Shown piece by piece: positions 320 to 21,800 of a DNA stretch of 23,300 bases. Within the stretch, counting starts at the first letter, position 1, and each line of letters starts with the position of its first letter. Position numbers and translations under genes: made by a program. The stretch comes from Planctomycetota bacterium (GTDB lineage Bacteria > Planctomycetota > UBA8108 > UBA1146 > JAJFFE01). The DNA is taken from NCBI GenBank assembly GCA_021776775.1, contig JAJFFE010000244.1, positions 1 through 23,300 on the forward strand. The letters are read 5' to 3'. The notes beneath the pieces are model-generated. The model was not told the DNA's origin. It saw only the letters and a program-made list of their open reading frames with translations, and did not search any database.

Positions 320-1234
320 GTGGATAGCGCTCCCCGGAGTACGATGACGCCTCCCCCCACCCAACCGAGGAGTCGAGTAGTGACGCTGCGTCTCTGGATG
401 AGTGCCCTGGTCATCGTAGGGGTGACCAACGTGAACGGTGCCGCCGTGCGTGCGCACGGAACGGTTCACACCCGGCTCGCTCGAGTGAACGGGCGGCTCG
501 CGACGTCTCCTCGCGACCCATCGCTTTGGGTCATGCGAGCATCGCTGCATCGCGAGCACCGAGACCTCGATTCGGCGCAACGCGATCTCGATCATGCGTT
601 GGCCTTGGACGATCGACATCACGATGCGCTGCTCGCGCGAGCTGGCTTGGCGCTCGCCCGTCAGCGGTACGACGAAACCATCGATCGTTGTCGCGACCTT
701 ATCGATCATTCGCCCGACGATGCTGGCGCCACGCTCATCTTGGCCCGGGCGTTAACGGCATCGGGACAACTCGAGTCAGCGTTCGACAGCTACGAGCGGG
801 TGATCGAGTTGCTGCCGCGCCCTGCGCCAGACCTGTTCCTCGAACAAGCTCGCGTCGCCCGACGCGCGTTTCCGAACCACCCGTATCTCGCCGCGTGGAG
901 TTTGGAAGCGGGGGTCGAACGGCTCGGCCCGATCGTTTCTCTGGTCCTTCCTCTGATCGAACTCGAGGTCGCATCGGAACTGTACGCAGTGGCCGAAGCG
1001 CGGGTCGATACTCTCCTTCGACAGTCCACCCGCGCCGGTCGTTGGCTTGTTCTTCGCGCCGAGATTCGGCTAGCGGCCGGAGATCATGAACTGGCGCGTA
1101 ACGACGCGGCACTCGCGATCGAATCACTCGGCTCGTCGAAGCGGCGTCCCGGCTCCAAACTCACAACCCAACTTCTTGAACGCGCGAATCGAGTCGTGAT
1201 CGAATCGCACCTCAACCTGGAGAAGCAACCATGA
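320..1234 (+). CDS. TPR-like repeat protein with an N-terminal hydrophobic segment; true start uncertain (later in-frame starts possible)
   Basis: 304-aa ORF with repeated helical A/L/R-rich units typical of TPR/Sel1 proteins (e.g. 'DLDSAQRDLDHALALDDRHHDALLARAGLALARQRYDETIDRCRDLI'). The segment 'VVTLRLWMSALVIVGV' looks like a transmembrane or signal helix. Its stop TGA (1232-1234) overlaps the ATG of the next gene as ATGA, suggesting translational coupling. Family assignment is by eye. Confidence 0.6.
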   Translation: MDSAPRSTMTPPPTQPRSRVVTLRLWMSALVIVGVTNVNGAAVRAHGTVHTRLARVNGRLATSPRDPSLWVMRASLHREHRDLDSAQRDLDHALALDDRHHDALLARAGLALARQRYDETIDRCRDLIDHSPDDAGATLILARALTASGQLESAFDSYERVIELLPRPAPDLFLEQARVARRAFPNHPYLAAWSLEAGVERLGPIVSLVLPLIELEVASELYAVAEARVDTLLRQSTRAGRWLVLRAEIRLAAGDHELARNDAALAIESLGSSKRRPGSKLTTQLLERANRVVIESHLNLEKQP

Positions 1235-3321
1235 CTCGGCTCGTGATTCAGCTGTTGACGCTCATGCTCTTCAGTACGACGGTCTCGGCGGCGGACACGC
1301 TCGTCGGATTCGGTTCGACGTGGAAGTACCTCGACAACGGCACGGACCCGGGACCGCTGTGGACAACGGGTGGGTTCAACGACGCCGGCTGGGCGGAAGG
1401 ACCGGCCGAACTGGGATACGGAGACGGTGACGAATCCACCGTAGTCAGCTTCGGCCCCGACCCGGACAACAAATACGTCACGACATACTACCGGCACGAA
1501 GCCGTCGTCGCCGACCCGTCACTCTACGACAGCCTGATCCTGCGCTTGGTTCGTGACGATGGTGCGGTGGTCTACATCAACGGGACGGAGGTCTTTCGAA
1601 CCAACATGCACGCGGGAACGATCACCTCCACGACGTTTGCCGTCAGCACGATCGGCGGCTCGGAGGAGACGCTGTTCAACCTCGCGATCGTCAACCCTGC
1701 GATCCTCGACCCCGGTTCGAACACGATTGCGGTCGAGATTCACCAACGAGAACCGGACAGCTCAGACACGTCGTTTCGCCTGCAATTGGTGGGTCATCTG
1801 TCCACGGATCCTATCAACGTTCTCCGTGGCCCCTACCTGCAACGCATCGCGCCCGATCGTGCTGTCGTTTGCTGGCGCACGAACGCCTTCACTGACAGTC
1901 GAATCGCTTTTGGCGACTCACCGACGAACCTGACGACCGTGGTCGACGACACCGCGTTGACGTCGGACCACGCGGTCGAAGTCACGGGTCTGTCGCCGTC
2001 GACGGCCTACTTCTACGCCGTGGGCACAACGAACTCGCCCGCTGCACCGTGGCTGGCCGGGGCCGACGCTAGCCACAAGTTCACCACGTCGCCCGCCCCG
2101 AGCGACCCCGGCCCCATACGCGTGTGGGCCATCGGCGACTCGGGTACCGCGGACGCCAACGCCGCGGCGGTTCGTGACGCCTACCTCGGGCTGGCCGGTA
2201 GCGACGCGACCGATCTCTGGTTGATGCTGGGCGACAACGCATACGACGCCGGGACCGACACCGAGTACCAAGGCGCAGTGTTCGACATGTACCCGACGTT
2301 CCTGCGCGAGCTCTCGGTGTGGCCGACGCTCGGCAATCACGACGGGCGCAGCGCAAGTATCACGGGCGAAGGACCGTACTACGCCATGTTCGACTTGCCC
2401 ACGCTCGGTGAGAACGGCGGCTTGGCATCGGGAACCGAAGCGTACTACTCCTTCGACCACGGCAACGTACACTTCGTCTGTCTCGACTCGGAAGGAAGCA
2501 GCCGCTCCCCGGGAAGCGCGATGCTGACCTGGCTCGAGAACGATCTCGCCAGCACCGACCGAGAGTGGATCATCGCATTCTGGCACCACCCACCGTACAC
2601 CGACGGGTCTCACGACTCCGACGACCCGACCGACAGCAGTGGTCGTCTCTTCGACATGCGAGAGAACGTGCTTCCCATTCTCGAAGACGGTGGCGTTGAC
2701 TTGGTCCTATGTGGTCACAGCCACTCCTACGAGCGTTCGTTTCTTCTCGACGCCCACTACGGAGTTTCTTCGACGCTGACTGCCGGCATGACCGTCGACG
2801 GCGGCGATGGCGATCCCACCGGCGACGGGGCGTACGAGAAGCCCGCCGGCGTCACCTCGCACAACGGCGCGGTGTTCGTGGTCGCCGGGTCGTCCGGGAA
2901 AACCAGCTCCGCGACGCTCGCACACCCCGCCATGATCGTGAGCCTCGAAGAGCTAGGCTCGGTCGTACTCGACATCGACGGACGTGAACTTCAGGGACGG
3001 TTCCTACGGTCGAACTCAGCCATTGCCGATACGTTCGTGATTCGCAAGAACGGAGCGTTCATCCGCGGCGACGCCAACGACGACGGAGCGTTCGACGTCG
3101 CTGACCCCGTGACGATTCTCGGCCACCTGTTTCAGTCGGCGTCGGTGAACTGCCGATCAGCCTTGGATTCCAATGACGACGAGTCGCTGAACATCGCCGA
3201 CGCCGTGCACGCTCTTGCCGCGCTATTCTCGGCAGGTGCGCCGCCGACCGCACCGTACCCATCCTGCGGTGCAGACCCCACGCCGGGCGGGCTCGATTGC
3301 GTGTCGTCTTCATGCCCCTGA
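1231..3321 (+). CDS. Secreted purple-acid-phosphatase-like metallophosphoesterase. Layout: signal peptide, N-terminal beta-sandwich module, PAP-N fibronectin-like domain, calcineurin-like phosphoesterase core, C-terminal dockerin-type double Ca-binding repeat with a Cys-rich tail
   Basis: 696-aa ORF with strong GC3 bias. Signal peptide 'MTRLVIQLLTLMLFSTTVSAADT'. Metallophosphatase motifs appear in canonical order: GDSG, GDNAYD, GNHD, WHHPPY, GHSHSYER. A PAP-N-like segment 'VLRGPYLQRIAPDRAVVCWRT...AYFYAV' precedes the core. The C-terminus 'FIRGDANDDGAFDVADPVTILGHLF...LDSNDDESLNIADAVHALAALF' fits the dockerin type I repeat pattern (DxNxDGxxxxxD...L), followed by 'PPTAPYPSCGADPTPGGLDCVSSSCP'. 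Confidence 0.9.
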   Translation: MTRLVIQLLTLMLFSTTVSAADTLVGFGSTWKYLDNGTDPGPLWTTGGFNDAGWAEGPAELGYGDGDESTVVSFGPDPDNKYVTTYYRHEAVVADPSLYDSLILRLVRDDGAVVYINGTEVFRTNMHAGTITSTTFAVSTIGGSEETLFNLAIVNPAILDPGSNTIAVEIHQREPDSSDTSFRLQLVGHLSTDPINVLRGPYLQRIAPDRAVVCWRTNAFTDSRIAFGDSPTNLTTVVDDTALTSDHAVEVTGLSPSTAYFYAVGTTNSPAAPWLAGADASHKFTTSPAPSDPGPIRVWAIGDSGTADANAAAVRDAYLGLAGSDATDLWLMLGDNAYDAGTDTEYQGAVFDMYPTFLRELSVWPTLGNHDGRSASITGEGPYYAMFDLPTLGENGGLASGTEAYYSFDHGNVHFVCLDSEGSSRSPGSAMLTWLENDLASTDREWIIAFWHHPPYTDGSHDSDDPTDSSGRLFDMRENVLPILEDGGVDLVLCGHSHSYERSFLLDAHYGVSSTLTAGMTVDGGDGDPTGDGAYEKPAGVTSHNGAVFVVAGSSGKTSSATLAHPAMIVSLEELGSVVLDIDGRELQGRFLRSNSAIADTFVIRKNGAFIRGDANDDGAFDVADPVTILGHLFQSASVNCRSALDSNDDESLNIADAVHALAALFSAGAPPTAPYPSCGADPTPGGLDCVSSSCP

Positions 3322-3367
3322 ATTTGGCGCGTTCGGCAACGGCAACTCTTGCAACCGCACTGCACGA

Positions 3368-3493
3368 TCAACTAGAACGATCACGTTCTTCCCGGCGTAC
3401 CTCGGCCCGGCACTTGTCGCACAGCTTCCACCCACGCGTCACTTCGGACGCGGTCAACACCGTCTCGCACCGTTCGCATTTTCGATCGGCCAT
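3368..3493 (-). CDS. Candidate small (41-aa) zinc-ribbon protein lying in the gap between the convergent genes ending at 3321 and starting at 3550
   Basis: Minus-strand ATG at 3493 with GAGGGG seven nt upstream (SD-like). Translation 'MADRKCERCETVLTASEVTRGWKLCDKCRAEVRREERDRSS' carries CxxC-x16-CxxC. The ORF sits wholly in the 3322-3549 gap. The track's 130-aa version (to 3760) overlaps the well-supported gene on the opposite strand and is not favoured. Confidence 0.3.
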   Translation of the reverse strand: MADRKCERCETVLTASEVTRGWKLCDKCRAEVRREERDRSS

Positions 3494-3549
3494 GGATACA
3501 CCCCTCGAACTCAGATGACACGACAGGACGCACGATTCCCTCTCACTAC

Positions 3550-3942
3550 TTGAACACCGACTACCTGCTGACATCGACCAACGATCTGGCCGCGCTGCCG
3601 GCGGCGTTGGATTCGCACGTCGAGTTACTGCACTGCGAGCGAGACGAAGACGGCAAGTGGTACGCCACGATCGAAGCGGCAGATTCCGGCGAAGAGCACC
3701 GCACACCAACGCAGGACATCGAAAGTATCCTAGCCGCCCTCGACGCGATCGACCCCGCAATTGCCGAGCTCATCGCGGGCTGCGAGTCGAAAGAGATGAA
3801 CATCGGCTGGCAAGCGTCCTCCGATCGGCCGGAAGGCACCTTCGCCCTACAGCCGCGACTCCTCGGAGAACTGGCCGCTCGCGGAATCGAACTCGCCGTA
3901 ACGATCTACCCGTCGTCGGAGAACCTAGACGAAGACGAATAG
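3550..3942 (+). CDS. Hypothetical small acidic protein (130 aa), TTG start
   Basis: Very strong third-position GC bias along the whole ORF. No in-frame ATG or GTG lies between the upstream stop (3373) and the TTG at 3550. No recognisable domain. No obvious SD. Confidence 0.55.
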   Translation: MNTDYLLTSTNDLAALPAALDSHVELLHCERDEDGKWYATIEAADSGEEHRTPTQDIESILAALDAIDPAIAELIAGCESKEMNIGWQASSDRPEGTFALQPRLLGELAARGIELAVTIYPSSENLDEDE

Positions 3943-3964
3943 TCCGGACTCATAGGTTGAAGTT

Positions 3965-4340
3965 TAGGCGTAGCCAGGCATGGCGTTCAGGTTCTTGGGC
4001 CCGTGACAACAACACGCCACGATGGTGCGTCATCCGGCAAGGGCGCCGCGACCCCGCTTTTGTGGGCGCATCGTGGCGTGGCTCGAACACCAGTGGGTTT
4101 GGGGATGGCGGAGTCGATGGCTCGCCACCGACGATGAGGCACGGGAGTGGGATTGGTCGCCGGATTGCGTGTTGGCAAACAAGCACGGGTGTGAACGACG
4201 GACGGGCGCATCGGGGCGTGTCCGATTCTGTTCGGGGCGATGGGCAGCGGGGATGCCCGATGCTTGCGGGTGTGTGTTGGGTGATGAGAAATGTGCGCTA
4301 GGCGGCGTGATCCGTACCGGGCTGGGTCCGGTCTTCATGG
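3965..4340. repeat. Left arm of a long imperfect inverted repeat (palindromic non-coding element)
   Basis: By-eye alignment shows 3968-4340 is the reverse complement of about 4670-5055. Identity is about 90% over the 3990-4210 core and decays toward the centre. The arms differ by single-base indels (e.g. 'gggtttgggg' vs 'gggtt-gggg'), so the ORFs inside them are not conserved in frame. This argues against coding. Confidence 0.85.
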
Positions 4341-4669
4341 GCAAACGCGGGGCCTCGGCCGGTTGCGCTGATGGGTGCGGCATCGTGCAAACGATGTGAC
4401 GCGAACCGTGCCCACTCCCCGGCTTCGCAGGCGGAGTGTCTTTGCTGACGCATCGGGCTAGATCGCTAGTCGGTGAGGAACGCCTCGATCGACGAGCAAC
4501 AACCCCCGTACGCAAGAACCAGCACTGCCATAACACTCGCGCAACGAGCAGCAGACACCGTGACCAGCAGAGCGTGAAAACCCTGTCAAACGAAAGACGA
4601 CAAAGTTCTAAGATTCATCGTGCGAAACTGAGTCCAAAACAGAGGACCCATTGCGAACGCCAAACCTCG

Positions 4670-5055
4670 TCCGGACGGGATGGCCCAGCCGCATCTCCGA
4701 CAGGGATCACATAGCCCCTGCCAACATCCACATACCCCAACCGACACCCAACGGAGTCGGGCACCTTCGCTGCCCCTCGCACGGAACAGAATGGTTCACG
4801 CCCGATGCGCCGGTCCTTCGTTCTCACCCGTGCTTGTTTGCCAACCCGCGACCCGGCGACCGACCCCACTCCCGTGCCTCATAGTCGGTGGCGAGCCATC
4901 GACTCGGCCATCCCCAACCCACTGGTGTTCGAGCCACGCCACGATGCGCCTGCAAAAGCGCCGTCGCGGCGCCCTTGCCGGATGACGCACCATCGTGGCG
5001 TGTGGTTCAACCCTGGAGGGTCACGGGGCAAGAACCGTGAACGCTACGCCTGGCG
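4670..5055. repeat. Right arm of the same inverted repeat
   Basis: Reverse complement of 4798-5055 aligns base-for-base with 3968-4210 (e.g. 'ccacgatggtgcgtcatccggcaagggcgccgcgac', 'gcgcatcgtggcgtggctcgaacaccagtgggtt'). The outer ~35 bp overlap the 3' end of the minus-strand gene 5021-5356. Confidence 0.85.
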
Positions 5056-5356
5056 GCGAGGCCGACGCGAGCCTATCGACGAGCCGCGTTGTCTCGTCGT
5101 CGCCTCTGTCGGGATGGCCGTCGAGCGTATTGCACAGAAACTTCGGAGTTCCGTAGGTCACCGACCACGTGCCGTCTTCGAGGCGCGACGCCGTGACTTC
5201 GAACGTCGTCTGCACCCCTTCGCGTTCTTGCGACTCGGACAAGATGACCCAGCCCGAGATTGGGGACGGCCAGTCGAACTTCAGCTTCGGGGTGTCGCCC
5301 GTGTCGGACGACGCGATTGACAACACGGAGACCAAGAACGATGTGAGAATCAACAC
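5021..5356 (-). CDS. Small secreted hypothetical protein (111 aa), GTG start
   Basis: AGGAGG lies 8 nt upstream of the GTG at 5356 (minus strand). The N-terminus 'MLILTSFLVSVLSIASS' looks like a signal peptide. Strong GC3 bias. Same orientation as the RecQ-like gene and immediately downstream of it. Confidence 0.55.
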   Translation of the reverse strand: MLILTSFLVSVLSIASSDTGDTPKLKFDWPSPISGWVILSESQEREGVQTTFEVTASRLEDGTWSVTYGTPKFLCNTLDGHPDRGDDETTRLVDRLASASPPGVAFTVLAP

Positions 5357-5370
5357 GGAACAACCCTCCT

Positions 5371-7470
5371 CTAGATCATCCCACGCGAGCCGAGTCGCCA
5401 GCGAACTCGAGCGATCGTGAGCGGCACGATATCGTCCTTGAAGTTCGCCCCTTTGCGCAAGGCGCGAATCGCTTCCTTGAGGGTCACTCCGGAGCCCAGG
5501 TAGTCGTCCACGATCAACATGGCGCCTTGGGGAAGTCGTGTGTGCGCGGGGGTCAATTTGCCGTGCACGTTGTCACGGCGTTGGTCGTTGTTCAACAACT
5601 CGCCCTGCCGCGACTCCGGTTCGGGATCCCACTCCAGCAGGTCGTCGAACACCCGGATGCCCAGGACCCGCTCGATTCGGCGACCGATCGCGGCCCGCTG
5701 AGACCAGGTGCGACTCGGAATCATGACGGCAAACGTGAACGTCGTCGTTTCAGCCAAGCGCAGGAGCGCTGCCTCGAACTGTTCTGCGAGGTCATCGCTC
5801 AGGTCGTCCTGCTCGGCGCGCGACTGCATGAATGCGACGAACTGCGGACTCCGCACTTGCCCGTCGAGGAGTGACAGTCCCGCTTCCATCTTTGGCGCGC
5901 GGGTCGCCGGAATTGCAATGTCACGGTGCGTAACCCAACGACGCGCGGCGGCGAGTTCGGATTCGGCGATCGGCTCGACGGCAACTCCCGGTTGGCAGCT
6001 TCCGCAACGACCACACTCCGTCGCTTCGGTGTCGCCGAGCGCCAAGCGCAACCGCTGCATGGAACAACTCGTCGACGAGCGACCATACTCGAGCATCGCT
6101 TCTAGCTCTTCGGTCCGCACGACGTGTTGTCGTTCGTAGCGCGACAGGTCCGCACGATCTTGTCGATCGGTTTGCAAATACACCTGACGGCGTCCCGCGA
6201 GCCGCTTGACGACGAAGCCTTGCTCGACCAACTCGGCAATCACGACCGTCACCTTGGTCGGGTGCATCCCGGTCAAGGCGCCGATCTGTCGACGCGCCGG
6301 AGCGTTGTCTTCGGCGCCACGTCGCTCCTTCGGCATACACGACAACACAGTCGCAAAGTCTTCGACGGTCGGCTGCGCGGAGCGAATGAAGTACTCCTGT
6401 ACCTCTCGATCGCGCTCGTCGTAGAGAAGGATTCCGGTGGCGGGATCACCATCGCGACCCGCTCGGCCGACTTCTTGGTAGTAGGCGGTGATCGAACCGG
6501 GAACGTCGACGTGCACGATGAAGCGAATGTCCGGTTTGTCGATGCCCATGCCGAGCGCATTCGTGGCGGCGATCACACACTGCTCACCGGTCGTGAACCG
6601 CGCTTGCAGGTCTCGCTTGAGATCCGGCGCCAGCCCCGCGTGGTAGGCGACAACGTTGTGCCCGACGGACGACAGATAACCCGCGATGATCTCGGTATTC
6701 TCTCGCGTCGAGCAGTAAAGGACTCCGCACGCCTTCCCCGCCTGTCCGTACTCTTCGAGCAGCTGCGACAAGCGAACCAGCTTGGCGTCGAGGCCGGGCG
6801 TCGGGATGACCCGTAGCGAAATGTTCGGCCGGTCCATGGTCTGACGCTGGATCGCCGATTCGCCGCCGTCCTCTGCCCGGAACTGGACCAGTATGTCGGT
6901 TTCGGTCCGAGCATTGGCCGTCGCGGTGAGACCGAGCACGCGTAGCTCGGGGCGTACGTTCTGCAGCGCGTGCACCGCGTGCATGATCTGCCGATACGAC
7001 GGCCTGAAGTCATGCCCCCACGTCGAAATGCAGTGCGCTTCATCGACGACGAAGAGATCGATCGGGAGGCTAGTGATGAACTCGAACGTCTCCAAGTTGT
7101 CGAGCCGCTCCGGGGCGACGAACAAGATGCGCAGCTGGCCCTTGCGGGCCGCGGTCATGACCGCCGCGTTCTCTTCCTCGGTTTGGTCAGAGTTGATCGA
7201 CCCCGCGGCCATGTCGAAACGAGTCTTAAGCTGCCCGACTTGATCTCGCATGAGCGCAAGGAGGGGCGAGACCACGAGGGTCATGCCTTCGAGAACTGCC
7301 GCGGGCAGCTGATAGAGCAACGACTTCCCGTGGCCCGTCGGCTGAATGCAGACCAGCCGTCCAGTCTCGAACAGAGTCTCGATTGCCTCCCGTTGTCCGG
7401 GTCTGTAGCCGTCGAAACCGAACCGTTCTCGTAGTACGTCATCCATTGCGGGGGGGATAGCGCTTGCCAT
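5371..7470 (-). CDS. recQ: RecQ-family ATP-dependent DNA helicase fused to a C-terminal ComF/GntX-type phosphoribosyltransferase-like domain
   Basis: 699-aa ORF. N-terminus 'RPGQREAIETLFETGRLVCIQPTGHGKSLLYQLPA' (motif I), 'VVDEAHCISTWGHDFRPSY' (DEAH box) and a RecQ Zn-binding Cys cluster '...CSMQRL...ECGRCGSC'. It lacks the usual HRDC end. Instead the last ~200 aa carry a type-I PRTase signature 'GAMLIVDDYLGSGVTLKEAIRAL', as in ComFC. Confidence 0.9.
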   Translation of the reverse strand: MASAIPPAMDDVLRERFGFDGYRPGQREAIETLFETGRLVCIQPTGHGKSLLYQLPAAVLEGMTLVVSPLLALMRDQVGQLKTRFDMAAGSINSDQTEEENAAVMTAARKGQLRILFVAPERLDNLETFEFITSLPIDLFVVDEAHCISTWGHDFRPSYRQIMHAVHALQNVRPELRVLGLTATANARTETDILVQFRAEDGGESAIQRQTMDRPNISLRVIPTPGLDAKLVRLSQLLEEYGQAGKACGVLYCSTRENTEIIAGYLSSVGHNVVAYHAGLAPDLKRDLQARFTTGEQCVIAATNALGMGIDKPDIRFIVHVDVPGSITAYYQEVGRAGRDGDPATGILLYDERDREVQEYFIRSAQPTVEDFATVLSCMPKERRGAEDNAPARRQIGALTGMHPTKVTVVIAELVEQGFVVKRLAGRRQVYLQTDRQDRADLSRYERQHVVRTEELEAMLEYGRSSTSCSMQRLRLALGDTEATECGRCGSCQPGVAVEPIAESELAAARRWVTHRDIAIPATRAPKMEAGLSLLDGQVRSPQFVAFMQSRAEQDDLSDDLAEQFEAALLRLAETTTFTFAVMIPSRTWSQRAAIGRRIERVLGIRVFDDLLEWDPEPESRQGELLNNDQRRDNVHGKLTPAHTRLPQGAMLIVDDYLGSGVTLKEAIRALRKGANFKDDIVPLTIARVRWRLGSRGMI

Positions 7471-9178: not shown

Positions 9179-10033
9179 TCACTCACACCCTGCGAACGAA
9201 TCACACGACAGGCTGTCGGGAGTCGGGTCGCCACCACAATCGCTCGGCGGCTCGAGAGGTGGCGTCGAAGCGACGAACAACGTCTCGAGTAGACGCACGA
9301 CATCGGCAATATCCAGTGCGCCGTCGTCGTTGCCGTCGCACGAACTGTCACACGGAGGCACGGTTGCCGCGCCGCTCGGGAACAGCTTGCCGAGCAGGAA
9401 CACCCCGTCGGAGATATCGTACGACGCGTCGTCATTGCAATCGCCACGGATGAACACGCCGGAGGAGGGCATGAGGGTCAGTGTCCCGGAGTTCCACGTC
9501 GTAGGCGCACTCAAGGTCGGAAAGATGGTCACCAGGTTGATCACAACCGGCCCCCCCGGGACGCGGGACAACGCCTCACTGAATTCGAGGCTCGTCGACA
9601 GCACTCCACCGCTCAGCGTCGGTTGCACCTCGTACGTGATTTCGAGGACCGGCTCCGCGGAGGGGAACGTCAGAAACACAAGCGAAGTCAGATTGTAGAC
9701 GCACCCCAGTGTCACCCCGAAGTCAGTGACCGAGTCTCCCCAGAAGTCCGGACCCGCTCCGCTGTTCAACGCAGCGATGATCGGCCCCTGATTCGACTCC
9801 GTGGCGACCACGAACACGTCGTCGTGCGCGACCCCCATCGAGAACCCTTGAGTGTCGTTCACAACACCGCTCAACTCCTCGATGGTCACCGAAACGGTAA
9901 ACTCCGTCGCGAGACCCGGAACGTACGACACCGTCTGGTCGGCGATGGCGAACTCGAACAGAATCTGTCCGCTCGCGACCGCGGGGAAAGCAAACAGCAC
10001 GATGACAATCGCTCGACAACAGGCGTGGTGCAT
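9179..10033 (-). CDS. Secreted hypothetical protein ending in the same dockerin-type double repeat plus Cys tail
   Basis: Signal peptide 'MHHACCRAIVIVLFAFPAVASGQ'. GGAAAGG lies upstream of the ATG (minus strand). The last 91 aa 'FIRGDCNDDASYDISDGVFLLGKLF...CDGNDDGALDIADVVRLLETLF...PPSDCGGDPTPDSLSCDSFAGCE' match the module seen in two other proteins here. The N-terminal ~170 aa match no family recognisable by eye. Confidence 0.8.
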   Translation of the reverse strand: MHHACCRAIVIVLFAFPAVASGQILFEFAIADQTVSYVPGLATEFTVSVTIEELSGVVNDTQGFSMGVAHDDVFVVATESNQGPIIAALNSGAGPDFWGDSVTDFGVTLGCVYNLTSLVFLTFPSAEPVLEITYEVQPTLSGGVLSTSLEFSEALSRVPGGPVVINLVTIFPTLSAPTTWNSGTLTLMPSSGVFIRGDCNDDASYDISDGVFLLGKLFPSGAATVPPCDSSCDGNDDGALDIADVVRLLETLFVASTPPLEPPSDCGGDPTPDSLSCDSFAGCE

Positions 10034-10798: not shown

Positions 10799-10873
10799 AG
10801 CGCTATAGCTCAGTGGATAGAGCATAGGACGGCAATCCTACGGGCGCAGGTTCGAATCCTGCTAGCACTACCA
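10799..10873 (+). tRNA. tRNA-like gene (75 nt with CCA) with a non-canonical anticodon arm; anticodon not assignable by hand (possibly a degenerate tRNA-Ala(GGC)-like sequence)
   Basis: Hand fold: acceptor AGCGCUA/UAGCACU (one C3:A70 mismatch), U8A9, canonical D-arm GCUC-AGUGGAUA-GAGC, T-arm GCAGG-UUCGAAU-CCUGC, discriminator A, CCA. The anticodon arm UAGGA-CGGCAA-UCCUA closes a 6-nt loop, one nt short and lacking U33. Total length is 75, not 76. Confidence 0.5.
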
Positions 10874-15859: not shown

Positions 15860-18800
15860 ATGAGTTTGCGCACGCACGTAGCGCTACTGACACTCGGGCT
15901 CCTGGCGACGACAGCGCCACCGGTCTGGGCCGCGGCCGATCTCGATCCGTCGACGACGTTCACTGCGGCGGACGGAGCGCGAACCACTCTCGACGTCGGT
16001 GGGGCGTGGGACGGCACCGCCGATGCCTCCGCATCCACCGGTGACACGCTCACCATCACCATCGACAACAACGCGAGCGGCCCCGCCGGATCAGACACCG
16101 CTTACGACCTCACGCTCGTGGTCACGTTACCGGTCGGTTTCAACTACGTGACCGGGAGCGCGAACGGCGTCGTCGGACTGACCGCCACGCAAGTGGGTCA
16201 GACTCTCACGTTCGCGGTACCCGCCGATACCGACCTCCCGCCGAGTACGTCGCTCGCCCTTACGTACGGCGTGGTCACCGCGACCACTGTGACCTCGGGT
16301 ACGTATGAGTTGACTTACACCATCGGCTACGGAACCACCGACGGCGCGACCGACGGCAGCGTGATTGCTTACCAGAACCTCGGTGTCACGGCCGGGGCCA
16401 CGGTGCTCACCGTCGATCGACCGGTGCAAACGCTGGCCGTGGGCGCCACCGCCTCATGGACCGTCGAAGTCACGAACTCGGGGGTGGGCGGGCTTTTCGA
16501 TGTCGTCCTCGAGGAAGCGCTGATCAACCCGAACCCGAGCGGCTCGCTTCAGATCACTTCGATCGTGCAGACGTTGCCGGTGACGCCGGTCGCCACCAGC
16601 GACGCCGACACCCTGACGCTCGCCTACTTGGCGCCGGGTGAAGTTCTGCGCGCGACAGTGCAAGCAACGGTCACCGGTTGCGACACGATCGACAACGAAG
16701 TGTCGACCACCGACCGCACGACCACCACCGCGAAGAGCACCACCGCCCACGTCGTGCTCGACCTCACTGAGCCGCTCATCGGATACACGCCGCCCACGAC
16801 GACGCTGCTCTACGACACTACCGGGAGCGTGAGCTTCGACGTCGACAATCTAGGCCTCGGCGACGCCGACGACATTGTTCTGCAGACCAACTTGGAGTTG
16901 TTGGGGGTCACGGTCACGGCGGTCTCCGGCGACTGGAGCTACAACTCTCTCGACGGCAACTTCACGCTGACGGCGGGAAGCGGAACCCTTTCGAACGGCG
17001 CATCGTCGACGTTGGCGTTCGACATCGCTCCGACTGACGTATGCGTCTCGCTCGGCGGAGGCACCGTGGTTTGGTCGTCGAGTTACGACAACGCCTGCGC
17101 GCAGAGCTACTTGACTCCCATCGAAATCTCGACGCTGAACGCCGTGTCGCTGGTTCCGTCGATCGCGCTCTCGATCGTTCCCGACGACGATCGCCTGGAA
17201 GTCGGAGCGACAAGCGCCTATCGAATCCGGTTCGACGCCACGCAGCTCGCGCTGATCCAGACCGATCCGATTGTCGTGACGCACACGTTGCCGACAGACG
17301 TTACCGCGGTGACGATCAGCGCTCCCGGCACGACCTCCTCGGGGTGCAGTGGCGTCTGCGCGGGTGGCGACACCGTCACGTGGACGATCGACCAGAGCGA
17401 CATCGGCGGAACGCTCGATCTGGTGATCGACTTCACGGCACCCGCGGACCCGTGTTTGGGCGGCACCGACTTGACCTATGCCGCAAGCTTGACCGCCAGC
17501 AGCACCGAGCTCTGCTCGCTGAACGCGTCTGTCAGCACAACGACGCTCCTCATCAATAATCCCGATGCCGGCGTCACGCAGAACTTCAACGTCGCGGCGG
17601 GCACCTTCGAAACGGGAGACCCGGATGACGGAGACCGAACCCGAAACTTCCAAGAGGGTGAGTTCCTCACCTACACCGTGACCTACACGTTCGGAGTGGG
17701 TAGCGCGGGCGTGTGGACCAACACGACGTTGAGCGACAGCTTCGGTGGCCTCGCCGGACAAACTTACGTCGCGGGTACCATGCAATACGAAGTCGATGGA
17801 GGCGGATTCTCCGGCGTAAATCCGGCGGACATCACAGCTGTACCCGGCGCCCTGTCGATAGATTTGGGCTTCCTCACCGCTCAAACCGGCGGGACAACGG
17901 TATCCGGGCATACAGTAACGCTGACGTACCAAACCACGATCCCCGACAGTGACCTGCTAGGGGCGACGAGCCGCACCTTCACGCAACTCGTCACGCTTGA
18001 CCTCGACGGCGGCGCAGGCGGTTGCGCCGGAGTGGGATCGACGTTCACCCAGGGAGCGTTCGTCACGATCGCTCGCGCGGCGCCGACCATCTCGGTAGCG
18101 ATGCCAAGCGATGTCTCCGTGTGTGAAGACTTCACGGTGACGCTGACCGTCGACAACTCGACCAGCGAGTTCCCGTCCAATCTACTCATGACGATCGACA
18201 CTAGCGGCAACTACCTCTACCCGACGGGACAAACTCCGACGTACGGGGGCGCGTTCACCGACGGCAACATCACTTACGTCGAGAACGGTGGCAGCAACCC
18301 TACGTTCGAGTTGACGCCGACGTCGACCGAGTTGACCGCGGCGGGCACGATCACGTTTCAGATGCACCGCGCCGCGGCGACCGGCACCACGCCGACATCG
18401 CTCGACGTCACGCTCGACTACGACGACCACCAAGAGGCCGACACCGCCGGGCGCGACTTCTCGACGAGCGGGTCTGCAACTCCCATTCTCGTCCGCGAAG
18501 GCGTGCTCGACATGATCGTCACGCCGCAGAGCTATACGGTGACCGGGAGCCAGGCGAGTTGGACGATCTACGTCACCAACACCGGCGCCGGCGCCGCGGT
18601 CGACGCGTCACTCACGGCGACGGTAGCGGCGGGACTCACACCGGACGCTACGGATAGCGACGCCCTGAATCCCGGCTACCCCGTCGTGGTTGCAAGTCAG
18701 GACATGACGTGGGATCTCGGCGACATGGCGTCGGGAACGACTCGAACCATCGAAGTCGTGGTCGACGTGACTTCGGCGATCGCCTGCTCGTTCACGCCGG

Positions 18801-21800
18801 GATCCAATTCAGCGACCGCCACCTGGGGTTGCGACGCGACTCCCCACCAAACGCTCAGTGAGAACTCCCCCGACCTGCTGTTCCTCGAGTCCGGAGTTCA
18901 GGCGTACCACGACACGACGCAGAGCCGCGCCCGACTGTGCGATACCGGCACGGTCATCATCACCGCACGCAACACCGGAGGCACTCACGTCTTCGATGTC
19001 GAAATCACCGAGGTGCTGAACCCGCTGACGAGTGGCGTCGACTACGTCGCGAGTTCGTCCGAGTTCTCGACCAACGGCGGCGGCTCGTGGAATCCCGCCG
19101 GCGACCCCTCAGGCGACGGAAGCGCCGGATCTCCTTACACGTGGGACTCGACTGACATCGCGGATCTCGTCGACTTGTCTCCTCTCACCGAAGGCGCTGG
19201 CGTCAGTGAAATCCTCCTGCGCTTCAGCGTCACCGCCGACGAAACCGCCAATCTAGGCGACCCCACGATCCTCGCCGGAATGAGTGGCGATTTGGCGTGC
19301 GGCGGGTCGGTGGCATCTCCGGGAACGCCGTTCACGTTGCCGGTCGAGAAGCCAGACATCCGAGTCACCATGAACACCCGCAATCTCACGAACGGTGGCA
19401 GCTTTGCAGCCTCGGCGTTCGGAGGCAACGGGGACACCGTCGAGTGGCAGGTCGCGGTACAGAACTCGGGGGATCACGACGCGCAAAACGTTCGCTTCGT
19501 CGTCAACCTGCCCAACAGCACTCCCACCTCGACGGTGATCGACGGTACGGGGTTCAGTTCAACTCCTTACACCGACAACTCAGTCATCACCGTTACCGAC
19601 ATCGCCGCCGGCACCACGGAGACGTTCACCATCACTGAAGTCCTGGGCTCCAGCTGTGTCGACGCAACGGCGACCGCCACTGTGACGTGGGGGTGTATCG
19701 ATCTCGGTGCGACGACACCGTCGGGGCTTTCAACACCGACCGACAACAGCGACACCGCGAGCTTCGTCATGGTTCCGGACTTCACGCAAGCCTCGGCGAT
19801 CACTCAAAGCTTCACCGCGCTCGAGAACGGCTTGACCCAAGTTCGTCTGACCATGACCAACAACGGCGGACGCGCCGAGAACTTGGTGCTGACGGACGCG
19901 CTCCCCGCTGGAATCGAGATAGACACCTCCTTCACGCCGACGCTTACCAGTACCGGAAACGTCACCAATGTCGCGGTGAATACGGCGGACGCGACAACAC
20001 CCGTGTTCACATTCACCGGCACCTTGATCAACAACACGAATGCTCGCGTGACGTTTCGCGTTCTACCGGTCACCGACTTCGACACCACAGTCTTGCCGCT
20101 GACAAGCCCCGAAACGGTCGGCTCCGGAGATACCGCGGTACCCGCGGGCGGGACCAATACCGCGACGCTGTCGTTCGACTCGTCGTGTGGTGACGCCGAC
20201 TCCGACGTCGACACCTCGACGCTGAATCCAGCCACGCCTGATCTCGACATGATCGTTTCTCCATCTTCCCAAGTCGTCGCCGACGGCGAAGCGGTCACCT
20301 ACCTATTCACGATCACCAACAACGGCGACGCGAGTTCCATCGCGGGCAACATCGATTTCACCCTGACGGCGGGCGCCGGTTGGACAAGCGTCAATAGCTC
20401 CATCACCACGCCGGGAACCGGCGGATCTGGTGAATCGTGCAGCGGATCGTGCTCGCTGACGGACTTCGGAACGCTCGCCCAAGGAGCGTCCGCCGTAGTC
20501 ACCGTGACAGCGGTCGCCAATGACAACGCAGGGTCCCTGCAGTTGATCGGAGCGGTGACGGGGAGCCTCACCGGCGGGAACTACAGCCTCGACCAAACCC
20601 AAGTACGAGTGGTGGGGTTCGAAACGACGCTCACCCGCCAGTCCACCAGTGAAACCTTCTCGACCGGCGCCGAGGTGGCGGTCGGTGAAGAGATCACGTG
20701 GCGGTTGACCGGCCGTTACTTCGGCGGCGAAGCGCTGACCGCGGTCTCGATTCGCAACACTCTGCCCACCGAACTCGGCTACGTCTCACACGCCACCGTC
20801 GGGAGTCACGACGTCACGATCTCCGGAGTTACCGGGGACACCGCAGTCACCTCGGGCACGATCAACTTTTCGGTGAGTGACTTCGCGGGGGTAGGAACGT
20901 TCGAAGTCGATCTGATCGCGCGAGTCCTCAACGTCGCGGGCAGCACCGATGGCGCGTCGCTCACCAACAACGTCGGATACACGTTCGACGCCTTCGGCGA
21001 CACTTACGCGTCCGATGCCGCCGCCGACGCCTTCGCCGGAGCGGAGTCGGATCTTCACGCCGACGACAGCGTCACCGTCAGACGACCTAACATCTCCGTA
21101 GCGAAGCTGGTCCGCAACGTGACGACCAGCGGGAGTTTCGCGACGTCGGCGGCCGGCGAAGCGGGCGACACCTTCGAATACCAAGTCACCGTCAACAACA
21201 GCGGCAACTTCCCCGGTCTCGATGTTTCGATCGTCGACACGCTCGCGACCAGCGAGCTGTTGATGGTCGACGGAGCGTCGGACGGTATCGACAACGACGG
21301 CGATGGAAGTATCGACGACGCCACCGAGGGCAGATACACGGTCGGAAGCGGCGGTGATGTCACGTTCGACCACACGTCAACAGTGCTCGCGTCGGGGTCG
21401 CCTTCGCAGACCTTGGCGCAACTCGACGCCGGTGAGTCACTGGTCTTCTTGTATCGAGTCACGGCCGGGTCCGGCGTGAACCCGGAGGAAGTCCTGGCCA
21501 ACAATGTGGTATCGACCACGACCAGCCTCCCCGGAGCCAGCGGATCTCAGTCGTCGTCCGCCGGTGTCAGCGGTGCGACCGACGGCGAACTGAGCCTGAC
21601 CGACAGCGATAGCATCGACGTCACGGTCGACTCAGTCGCGCTCGCCAAAACCATCGTCGCCACGGCGCTGGGAGCGGATACCTCGACCGACGTCGTCATC
21701 GGCGAACAGATCACCTTCGAACTGTCGGTAGTCTTGCCGTCGGGTACGGTGCCCGCGCTCGAGATCGACGACTCGCTCCCGGCCGGGCTCTCACTCGTCG

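What the first reader, a model, noticed from the sequence alone, without database searches (positions are those of the whole stretch)
3965..5055. ~1.1-kb non-coding imperfect palindrome filling the gap between two convergent genes
Sequence 3968-4340 is the reverse complement of 4670-5055. Identity is about 90% over ~220 bp of the outer arms and falls toward a diverged, lower-GC, CA-rich centre (about 4340-4670). Every long ORF inside the arms is broken between copies by single-base indels, so the arms are not duplicated genes. The right arm runs ~35 bp into the 3' end of gene 5021-5356. The left arm begins ~25 bp after the stop of gene 3550-3942. Arms of >350 bp are far longer than terminators, REP elements or typical MITE terminal repeats. 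Candidates: a MITE-like non-autonomous element, a long hairpin ncRNA gene, or an inversion or replication-slippage scar. If transcribed, the whole element would fold into a stem-loop of roughly 370 bp.
Basis: seen in the sequence. Interest (0 to 1): 0.65.

Follow-up and report, generated by a model that had tools for sequence, protein, structure and literature searches.

The report
Orphan non-coding 1.1-kb imperfect palindrome
A real but one-of-a-kind 1.1-kb stretch of non-coding DNA between two converging genes, made of two ~340-bp mirror-image arms around a unique middle, most likely left by an old inverted duplication of one gene's tail and downstream DNA rather than being a mobile element or an RNA gene.

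Summary
Window 3973-4314 is the reverse complement of 4703-5054: 360 aligned columns, 82.5% identity, local score 398 against at most 32 in shuffles. Identity is 90-95% at 4040-4199 and decays towards a unique 388-bp centre.

The whole 1.08 kb is non-coding. There is no codon signal in any frame, no Pfam hit, and no ORF from it was ever deposited as a protein.

It matches no Rfam family. Single arms and the centre fold no better than shuffles. Differences between the arms are not enriched for G·U-preserving changes, so nothing shows selection for a long RNA hairpin.

No second copy or relative turned up anywhere I could search. The rest of the source genome was not searchable. I found no convincing target-site duplication and no transposase or recombinase nearby.

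The right arm's outer 34 nt are the last 10 codons plus stop of gene B (5021-5356). A terminator-like hairpin+TTTT follows 49 nt later. The left arm carries frameshifted, decayed copies of both.

Best reading (confidence about 0.5): an old inverted partial duplication of gene B's 3' end and downstream DNA. It is probably neutral, or at most a barrier to read-through transcription.

A MITE-like or foldback element, a functional hairpin RNA, an invertible switch and a misassembly remain minor possibilities. Interest is low to moderate.

The parts
3973..4314 (.). Left arm of the inverted repeat (G-rich on the + strand)
   Evidence: Gapped alignment with the reverse complement of 4703-5054, 82.5% identity; GC skew +0.14 to +0.33
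4315..4702 (.). Unique centre (388 bp); its right half is lower in GC and CA-rich on the + strand
   Evidence: No residual inverted or direct homology; no special fold (z +0.3 and -0.4); no coding signal; no hits for its six-frame translation
4703..5054 (.). Right arm of the inverted repeat (C-rich on the + strand)
4040..4199 (.). Best-conserved core of the left arm (mirror about 4817-4975): 7.5 difference events per 100 nt. The longest exact matches, 4012-4052=4963-5003 (41 nt) and 4065-4099=4916-4950 (35 nt), lie at or near its outer edge
   Evidence: core versus inner part, 18.3 events per 100 nt, Fisher p = 0.008
5021..5054 (-). Outer end of the right arm = last 10 codons plus TGA of gene B (...PGVAFTVLAP*)
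   Evidence: ORF 5021..5356 with a clear coding signal; present as a protein in the NCBI and Logan annotations
3974..4006 (+). Decayed copy of the gene B tail in the left arm (PGMAFRFLGP*, two 1-nt indels, TGA at 4004-4006, preceded by an in-frame TAG at 3971-3973)
   Evidence: Read from the sequence and the list of differences
4954..4972 (-). Terminator-like site in gene B's sense, 49 nt after its stop: GCGCCG-CGA-CGGCGC followed by TTTT, inside a 70-nt local hairpin (4935-5002)
   Evidence: Sequence; fold of 4931-5007(-) gives z = -4.7, 0 of 200 shuffles as stable. It falls below the consensus scan's requirement of 5 T
4044..4062 (+). Left-arm copy of that site with the stem broken (GCGCCG-CGA-CCCCGC TTTT); the local hairpin 4013-4080 is weaker
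   Evidence: Difference block CC/GG at 4053; fold z = -2.9
5008..5019 (.). 12-nt segment (CCTCCAGGGTTG in arm orientation) just after gene B's stop, present only in the right arm
3550..3942 (+). Flanking gene A (130 aa, acidic, no family); converges on the palindrome
   Evidence: Coding score +0.39 per codon, GC3 0.75; two remote homologues at 54% and 51%
5021..5356 (-). Flanking gene B (111 aa, hydrophobic N-terminus); 15 nt downstream of the PsyrT-like helicase gene
   Evidence: Coding score +0.23 per codon, GC3 0.81; its only hits are repeat modules of giant proteins

Best explanation
This is a non-coding quasi-palindrome created by an old inverted partial duplication.

The copied segment was about 340-350 bp. 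It comprised the last 10 codons and stop of gene B, its 3' untranslated region with a terminator-like hairpin, and about 250 bp of downstream DNA. It was copied in inverted orientation to a point 31 bp downstream of the converging gene A, leaving a 388-bp unique spacer between the copies.

The right arm is the original and the left arm is the copy. The left arm has since collected frameshifts in the ex-coding tail and lost the terminator stem.

The low divergence of the middle of the arms compared with their inner part is most simply explained in one of two ways. Either occasional arm-to-arm gene conversion keeps the middle similar, or changes that desymmetrise the region next to the centre are preferentially tolerated because they stabilise a palindrome. 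Both ideas are inferred.

The element probably has no dedicated function. Its likely physical effects are these. Transcripts reading out of either gene meet the same sequence. Full read-through would fold into a stem of about 340 bp. The two arms are also a substrate for RecA-mediated inversion of the centre.

Shown: the structure, the non-coding nature, the orphan status, the gene-tail and hairpin asymmetry between the arms, and the absence of pairing-preserving substitutions. Inferred: the direction and mechanism of the duplication, gene conversion, and neutrality.
For: The repeat is real and highly significant.

It is non-coding. All internal ORFs have negative codon scores in all three frames and flat GC1/2/3, while genes A and B score like real genes. 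There are no Pfam hits. A six-frame query against 5.8 billion proteins returns nothing, not even a self hit. None of the five longest internal ORFs is in the 15-billion-protein collection, whereas genes A and B are.

The right arm's outer 34 nt are in-frame gene B sequence. The left arm holds a copy with two 1-nt indels (sequence).

In the right arm the hairpin GCGCCG-CGA-CGGCGC+TTTT lies 49 nt past gene B's stop, on gene B's strand, inside a local hairpin with z = -4.7. The left copy has the stem broken and z = -2.9.

No other copy exists in the 23.3-kb contig. There is no match in plasmids or phages. Exact 18- to 20-mers taken from three blocks that are identical in both arms found only chance matches in GTDB species genomes, JGI metagenomes and IMG/VR.

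No transposase or recombinase domain was found among the neighbours.

There is no Rfam family. Arms and centre fold like shuffles. Differences between the arms show no excess of G·U-preserving changes (7/37 and 5/37 against 6.2 expected), and there are 26 gap columns.

Divergence is heterogeneous: 7.5 events per 100 nt in the core against 18.3 in the inner part (p = 0.008).
Against: The direction of copying rests on one gene tail of 10 codons and one short hairpin. An element that inserted into the 3' end of gene B and donated a new C-terminus and stop would look the same. Gene B has no orthologue with which to test this.

Multicopy status could not be tested in the source genome, because the MAG is absent from the searchable genome collection (one search did not even find the window itself).

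Neutral 1.1-kb non-coding DNA that has diverged by 10-20% is unexpected in a bacterial genome with deletion bias, which hints at either maintenance or fast local mutation.

The substitution spectrum lacks the usual transition bias (12 transitions to 25 transversions). This is not explained.

The interior joins of the palindrome are supported by a single assembly.
Confidence: 0.5

Rival explanations
1. It is a non-autonomous mobile element of MITE or foldback type, or a decayed insertion sequence with unusually long terminal inverted repeats. It inserted between the convergent genes, clipped the 3' end of gene B and supplied its last codons and stop.
For: It has terminal inverted repeats with a sharp outer boundary at GCCAGGC on both sides. 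It encodes no transposase. It folds into a very stable stem-loop, as MITEs do (PMC3184786). MITEs are known to overlap and fuse with gene ends. A possible 4-bp direct repeat GGCG lies at 3967-3970 and 5055-5058 (sequence).
Against: No second copy was found in the contig or in any collection. The GGCG repeat is offset by 2 nt on the left and is expected by chance in GC-rich DNA. The length (1082 bp) and the 340-bp arms lie outside the range of about 80-440 bp listed for bacterial MITEs. Arm identity of only 82% with a gradient is unlike a recently active element. No IS or transposase is in the window.
Confidence: 0.2
2. It is a functional long-hairpin RNA locus, or a shared 3'-UTR module. Read-through from gene A or from the PsyrT-like/gene B operon yields a stem of about 340 bp that blocks convergent transcription, is cut by RNase III, or stabilises the 3' ends of both mRNAs.
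For: By symmetry both convergent genes are followed by the same G-rich sequence in their own sense. Each arm has a local 70-nt hairpin more stable than shuffles (z = -2.9 and -4.7). No strong intrinsic terminator precedes the arms, so read-through into them is plausible. The whole element folds at -748 kcal/mol. The persistence of 1.1 kb of non-coding DNA hints at maintenance.
Against: There is no Rfam family. Differences between the arms are not enriched for pairing-preserving changes, and they include 25 transversions and 26 gap columns. The terminator-like stem is intact in only one arm. Arms and centre as wholes fold like shuffles. No orthologue exists with which to test covariation.
Confidence: 0.12
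3. It is an invertible segment. The 388-bp centre flips by homologous recombination between the 340-bp inverted arms and switches an outward-reading signal between the two flanking genes.
For: The architecture fits: inverted repeats flank a unique, compositionally asymmetric centre. Exact matches of 41 and 35 nt between the arms are long enough for RecA-dependent exchange (established knowledge). Gene conversion, the sister outcome of such exchange, would explain the well-conserved core.
Against: No invertase or recombinase gene is in the window. There is no sigma-70-like promoter anywhere in 3300-5500. Known invertons use short repeats and a dedicated recombinase. Only one orientation has been seen.
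Confidence: 0.07
4. It is an assembly artefact. The contig wrongly joins two loci, or two strains, inside the palindrome.
For: The window is a complete 23.3-kb MAG contig. The independent Logan assembly of the same run does not span the interior: its contigs stop at 3988 and 4974. The stop at 3988 is not explained by the repeat.
Against: Assembler hairpin artefacts give perfect, not 82%-identical, inverted copies. Both flank-to-arm junctions are reproduced at 100%. L002 stops exactly at the first 30-mer shared by the two arms (4974-5003). That is the branch a k=31 graph must make if both arms exist in the reads. The Logan contigs also break inside ordinary genes (at 1193 and 6581), which indicates low coverage rather than conflict.
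Confidence: 0.06

Closest known systems
Interrupted palindromes and inverted duplications of bacterial chromosomes (e.g. the 246-bp interrupted palindrome studied in E. coli, PMC3315005)
   Same: Two closely spaced inverted copies of ordinary chromosomal DNA around a spacer. No genes, no mobility functions. Capable of hairpin formation and of seeding further inverted duplication or recombination.
   Different: The E. coli cases are engineered and perfect. This one is natural, has diverged to about 82% identity, and has a large 388-bp spacer, which should make it much less prone to hairpin extrusion and SbcCD cleavage (established knowledge, not tested here).
Bacterial MITEs and MITE-like palindromic repeats (Correia, ERIC, Nezha, Chunjie, NFM2-MITE; review PMC3184786)
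   Same: Non-coding, terminal inverted repeats, a very stable predicted stem-loop, a position downstream of genes and overlap with a gene's 3' end.
   Different: [quoted passage not shown] Here there is a single locus of 1082 bp with 340-bp arms and no convincing duplication.
REP/BIME-type extragenic palindromes and intrinsic (bidirectional) terminators between convergent genes
   Same: Located between convergent genes. Contains GC-rich hairpins, one followed by TTTT, at a sensible distance (49 nt) from a stop codon.
   Different: Those units are 20-40 nt and occur hundreds of times per genome. The terminator-like hairpin here is a small part of one arm and is degraded in the other.
Invertons (phase-variable invertible DNA segments)
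   Same: A unique segment bracketed by inverted repeats.
   Different: Invertons have short repeats (tens of bp), a site-specific recombinase and a promoter or gene part inside. None of these was found.

Membership tests
MITE / non-autonomous transposable element | Terminal inverted repeats | tested here: met
   Arms 3973-4314 and 4703-5054, though about 10 times longer than typical terminal repeats
MITE / non-autonomous transposable element | Multiple copies in the genome | tested here: inconclusive
   No other copy in the 23.3-kb contig or in the plasmid, phage, GTDB, JGI and IMG/VR collections. The rest of the source genome is not in any searchable collection
MITE / non-autonomous transposable element | Flanking target-site duplication | tested here: not met
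   Only GGCG at 3967-3970 and 5055-5058, offset by 2 nt from the left end; a chance-level match (sequence)
MITE / non-autonomous transposable element | Small size (generally <200 bp, up to about 440 bp; PMC3184786) | tested here: not met
   1082 bp
MITE / non-autonomous transposable element | Terminal repeats shared with an autonomous IS | not testable with these tools
   No IS database is available; no transposase in the window
Known structured RNA family (Rfam 15) | Covariance-model match at or near the gathering score | tested here: not met
   Only a tRNA elsewhere in the window. In 3850-5150 the best E-values are 0.32 and 3.2, far below the gathering scores
Functional long hairpin RNA | Pairing kept by compensatory or wobble changes | tested here: not met
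   7/37 (+ RNA) and 5/37 (- RNA) G·U-preserving differences against 6.2 expected; 26 gap columns. Only two sequences exist, so the power is low
Functional long hairpin RNA | Transcription across both arms | not testable with these tools
   No RNA-seq; no promoter-like site in 3300-5500
Intrinsic terminator | GC-rich stem-loop followed by a U-tract just downstream of a gene | tested here: inconclusive
   Right arm, - strand: 6-bp GC stem, 3-nt loop, TTTT, 49 nt after gene B's stop. It fails the scan's requirement of 5 T. The left copy has a broken stem
Inverton (invertible switch) | Inverted repeats flanking a unique segment | tested here: met
Inverton (invertible switch) | Nearby site-specific recombinase | tested here: not met
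   No recombinase domain among the window's proteins in the Pfam and PADLOC scans
Inverton (invertible switch) | Both orientations present in the population | not testable with these tools
Paralogous convergent coding genes | Intact frames or a coding signature in the arms | tested here: not met
   Negative codon scores in all frames, flat GC1/2/3; frames broken by indels; no protein relatives

The most novel reading that the evidence does not exclude
The palindrome is a selectively maintained element rather than a scar. It could be a long-hairpin RNA/DNA module that gives both converging transcription units the same 3' end and insulates them. It could also be a recombination-flippable spacer, or an RNA partner or substrate of the adjacent orphan PsyrT-like RecQ helicase, which lacks its usual PsyrA antitoxin gene.
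Probability: 0.08. Interest if true: 0.6.

Novelty: new member of a known kind. Interest (0 to 1): 0.25.

Why it matters
If the best explanation is right, the finding matters little. It is a natural example of a long interrupted palindrome tolerated in a bacterial chromosome. It shows how an inverted partial duplication can carry a gene tail and terminator to the far side of an intergenic region, and how such repeats break short-read assemblies.

It would matter more if the element proved to be maintained. Stems of 340 bp between convergent genes are not a described regulatory device in bacteria. The neighbouring PsyrT-like toxin-type helicase without a recognisable antitoxin would then make an RNA or DNA partner worth testing.

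Tried and rejected
1. Paralogous genes or pseudogenes in the arms. Rejected: no coding signal, no Pfam hit, and no hit for a concatenated six-frame translation of 3960-4702 among 5.8 billion proteins. Genes A and B are not paralogues (BLASTP E = 29).

2. Known RNA. Rejected: Rfam at gathering and at E <= 10; ARAGORN finds nothing in the region.

3. Each arm or the centre as a structured RNA in its own right. Rejected: z-scores of -0.3, -0.07, +0.3 and -0.4.

4. Tandem or iterated sub-structure. TRF finds nothing. The only feature is a 15-nt motif GCGCATCGKGGCGTG at 4066 and 4206, with a mirror at 4935; part of it forms the stem of the local hairpin.

5. Relatives by DNA. No hits in plasmids or phages. 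One GTDB scan returned a chance 20-mer in a Bifidobacteriaceae MAG that does not extend. Two JGI metagenome scans found nothing. Three IMG/VR scans returned only chance 18-mers that do not extend.

6. Synteny. The nearest PsyrT/RecQ homologues are at most 64% identical and have unrelated neighbours. Gene A has two remote homologues on short contigs with no arm-like DNA downstream. Gene B has no orthologues, so the test of whether its C-terminus is native could not be done.

7. Residual homology in the centre. None.

8. Excess of complement-type substitutions as a sign of template switching. Not significant (14/37 against 1/3, p = 0.34), although CC/GG at 4053 and TG/CA at 4063 are reverse-complement dinucleotide swaps.

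9. Organism name from cluster records. None given; all the neighbouring proteins looked up are singleton clusters.

Full report
**The observation**

The stretch between the converging genes 3550-3942 (+, gene A) and 5021-5356 (-, gene B) contains a long inverted repeat. The repeat finder reports arms 4008-4103/4912-5007 at 94% and 4096-4215/4801-4920 at 91%. blastn of the region against the window gives E = 8e-97 for the inverted match and finds no other copy in the 23.3 kb.

A gapped alignment of 3973-4314 with the reverse complement of 4703-5054 has 360 columns. Of these, 297 are identical (82.5%), 37 are substitutions and 26 are gaps. The local alignment score is 398, against a mean of 22 and a maximum of 32 in 200 shuffles.

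Identity in 40-column windows runs 0.78, 0.78, 0.90, 0.95, 0.93, 0.88, 0.82, 0.72, 0.68 and then falls to background. When each indel is counted as one event:
- the core 4040-4199 has 7.5 differences per 100 nt
- the outer 67 nt have 10.4
- the inner 115 nt have 18.3 (core versus inner, p = 0.008)

Beyond 4314/4703 there is no detectable homology, inverted or direct (score 12 against 11.9 +/- 2.0 in dinucleotide shuffles). The centre's right half is lower in GC and CA-rich. The window has no other inverted repeat of comparable size.

**Is it real DNA?**

The window is a complete NCBI contig of 23,300 bp. All neighbouring proteins looked up are singleton clusters among 15 billion proteins, so the organism has been sampled only once.

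An independent Logan assembly of run SRR15505515 yields two contigs that are 100% identical to the window. They end at 3988 and 4974. The longest exact match between the arms is 4012-4052 = 4963-5003. L002 stops exactly at the first shared 30-mer (4974-5003). A k=31 graph must branch there if both arms are present in the reads.

The stop of L001 at 3988 is not explained by the repeat. However, these contigs also end inside ordinary genes (at 1193 and 6581), which suggests low coverage.

Assembler hairpin artefacts give perfect inverted copies, not copies that are 82% identical. I put misassembly at about 6%. The interior joins remain unconfirmed.

**Coding or not**

I trained a codon-usage log-likelihood on the contig's long genes.
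- Gene A scores +0.39 per codon in frame, with GC3 of 0.75.
- Gene B scores +0.23 per codon in frame, with GC3 of 0.81.
- Every ORF inside the palindrome scores negative in all three frames, with flat GC1/2/3.

In a whole-contig map, 3973-5054 is the only stretch over 1 kb without coding signal. The internal ORFs have no Pfam family apart from two sub-threshold chance hits. A concatenated six-frame translation of 3960-4702 finds nothing at E <= 10 among 5.8 billion predicted proteins, not even a self hit. The five longest internal ORFs are absent from the protein collection, while genes A and B are present. Indels at 3990, 3997, 4098, 4213 and further in break each frame between the copies. 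Genes A and B are not paralogues. The "paralogous gene ends" refutation condition is therefore not met.

**RNA**

No Rfam family matches at gathering score or at E <= 10. ARAGORN and TRF find nothing in the region. A single arm folds like shuffled sequence on either strand (z = -0.3 and -0.07), and so does the centre (z = +0.3 and -0.4). The whole element folds into the expected long stem (-748 kcal/mol), but that follows directly from the repeat.

If the long hairpin were a selected RNA, differences between the arms should favour changes that keep G·U pairs. They do not: 7 of 37 for the + strand RNA and 5 of 37 for the - strand RNA, against 6.2 expected. In addition, 25 transversions and 26 gap columns disrupt pairing. 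With only two sequences the power is low, but nothing points to selection on pairing. No sigma-70-like promoter occurs in 3300-5500, and terminator-like consensus sites are at chance level.

**Internal anatomy that bears on origin**

The right arm's outer 34 nt (5021-5054) are the last 10 codons and the TGA of gene B (…PGVAFTVLAP*). The left arm's outer end (3974-4006) reads PGMAFRFLGP* in the equivalent phase. It has two 1-nt indels that shift the frame between them, and an in-frame TAG immediately upstream.

Just after the stop, the right arm has 12 nt that the left arm lacks.

Forty-nine nt past gene B's stop, on gene B's strand, lies GCGCCG-CGA-CGGCGC followed by TTTT (4972 to 4954). It sits inside a 70-nt local hairpin that is much more stable than shuffles (z = -4.7, 0 of 200 shuffles as stable). 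In the left arm the stem is broken by a GG-to-CC swap, and the local hairpin is weaker (z = -2.9).

So one arm looks like a working gene end with a plausible terminator, although it falls below the consensus scan's T-tract rule. The other arm looks like a decaying copy of it.

**Search for relatives**

No relative was found anywhere.
- There is no similarity in 72,556 plasmids or 50,697 phage records.
- Exact 18- to 20-mers from three blocks that are identical in both arms gave only chance matches that do not extend. This covers GTDB species genomes, JGI metagenomes (no hits) and IMG/VR.
- The GTDB scan did not even return the window, so the source MAG is not in that collection. Multicopy status within its own genome remains untested.
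- The nearest homologues of the adjacent helicase are at most 64% identical and sit in unrelated neighbourhoods.
- Gene A has two remote homologues (54% and 51%) on short contigs with no arm-like DNA downstream.
- Gene B has no orthologue. It only resembles repeat modules of giant proteins. The test of whether its C-terminus is ancestral could therefore not be done.

**Interpretation**

The most economical account is an old inverted partial duplication. A segment of about 340-350 bp was copied in inverted orientation to a point 31 bp beyond gene A, leaving a 388-bp spacer. The segment ran from 10 codons before gene B's stop through its 3' region.

The heterogeneous divergence is compatible with two inferred processes:
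- occasional arm-to-arm gene conversion (the exact tracts of 41 and 35 nt would permit RecA-dependent exchange)
- preferential fixation of desymmetrising changes near the centre, which stabilise palindromes

Long palindromes are known to be processed by SbcCD and to provoke inverted duplications in E. coli (PMC3315005). A large spacer should make this one tolerable.

I assign about 0.5 to this model. It implies no dedicated function, at most a barrier to convergent read-through.

**Rival explanations**

- **MITE or foldback-type element (0.2).** This would also explain a sharp outer boundary and a donated gene end. However, the defining features listed in PMC3184786 are not met. Multiple copies were not found. 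There is no target-site duplication beyond an offset GGCG. The size is far above the usual limit of under 200 bp (up to about 440 bp).
- **Functional hairpin RNA or shared 3'-UTR module (0.12).** This is not excluded and would be the interesting case.
- **RecA-invertible switch (0.07).** This lacks a recombinase and a promoter.
- **Misassembly (0.06).** See "Is it real DNA?" above.

**Context**

The "RecQ" gene 15 nt upstream of gene B matches the PADLOC PsyrT model end to end (E = 1e-153). PsyrTA is a validated toxin-antitoxin family whose toxin is a RecQ-type helicase (PMC8790059). No PsyrA-like partner was detected among the neighbours. This places the palindrome next to a defence or toxin-type gene. 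It does not by itself explain the palindrome.

**Verdict**

The feature is real, non-coding and an orphan. It is best read as a scar of inverted duplication. It is a new instance of a known kind of structure, and interest is low to moderate (0.25). The most novel reading still open, a maintained long-hairpin or insulator element possibly linked to the orphan PsyrT-like gene, has a probability of about 0.08.

Noticed in passing
window 5371-7470 (-): The RecQ-like helicase matches the PADLOC PsyrT model over its full length (E = 1.1e-153). PsyrT is the toxin of the PsyrTA toxin-antitoxin/defence family. No PsyrA-like partner was detected among the neighbours. The only co-directional neighbour is the 111-aa gene B, 15 nt downstream. 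The family is very large: 7917 proteins at E <= 1e-50.
   Followed up: partly
window 15860-23299 (+): A giant ORF of at least 2480 aa runs off the contig end and has a strong coding score. It contains DUF11 repeats (x5), bMG10 and integrin-Ig-like domains. The ORF listing does not list it because it is open-ended.
   Followed up: partly
window 10799-10873 (+): This is a tRNA gene (Rfam 59 bits) that ARAGORN cannot assign ('tRNA-???', 2-nt anticodon 'gc'). Read by eye, the anticodon stem TAGGA/TCCTA encloses only 6 nt (CGGCAA), and the acceptor stem has a C·A mismatch. It could be a pseudo-tRNA, an unusual tRNA or a 1-nt assembly error.
   Followed up: partly
window 5021-5356 (-): Gene B (111 aa, hydrophobic N-terminus) has no orthologues. 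It does hit repeated modules inside giant proteins (for example 12 stretches in a 1290-aa protein), so it looks like a stand-alone copy of a repeat domain.
   Followed up: partly
window 3068-3111 and 9296-9339: A 44-nt, 73% inverted match corresponds to the same D-x-N-D-D-G-x-x-D (dockerin/EF-hand-like) peptide motif in two proteins on opposite strands (the C-terminus of 1231..3321, and 9179..10033). It is a coding motif, not a DNA element.
   Followed up: no
L001 end = window 3988: The Logan contig from the left stops 24 nt before the first stretch shared by the arms. The repeat does not explain this stop. Possible causes are low coverage or a sequence variant at the left junction in the sample.
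   Followed up: no
window 3973-4314 vs 4703-5054: Substitutions between the arms show no transition bias: 12 transitions, 14 complement-type and 11 other transversions. They include two reverse-complement dinucleotide swaps (CC/GG at 4053, TG/CA at 4063) that remodel the local hairpin.
   Followed up: partly
window 3645-3661 and 5164-5180: A 17-nt, 94% inverted match lies inside genes A and B and encodes EDGKW and EDGTW. It is out of register with the palindrome, and the proteins are otherwise unrelated (BLASTP E = 29). It is probably chance.
   Followed up: yes
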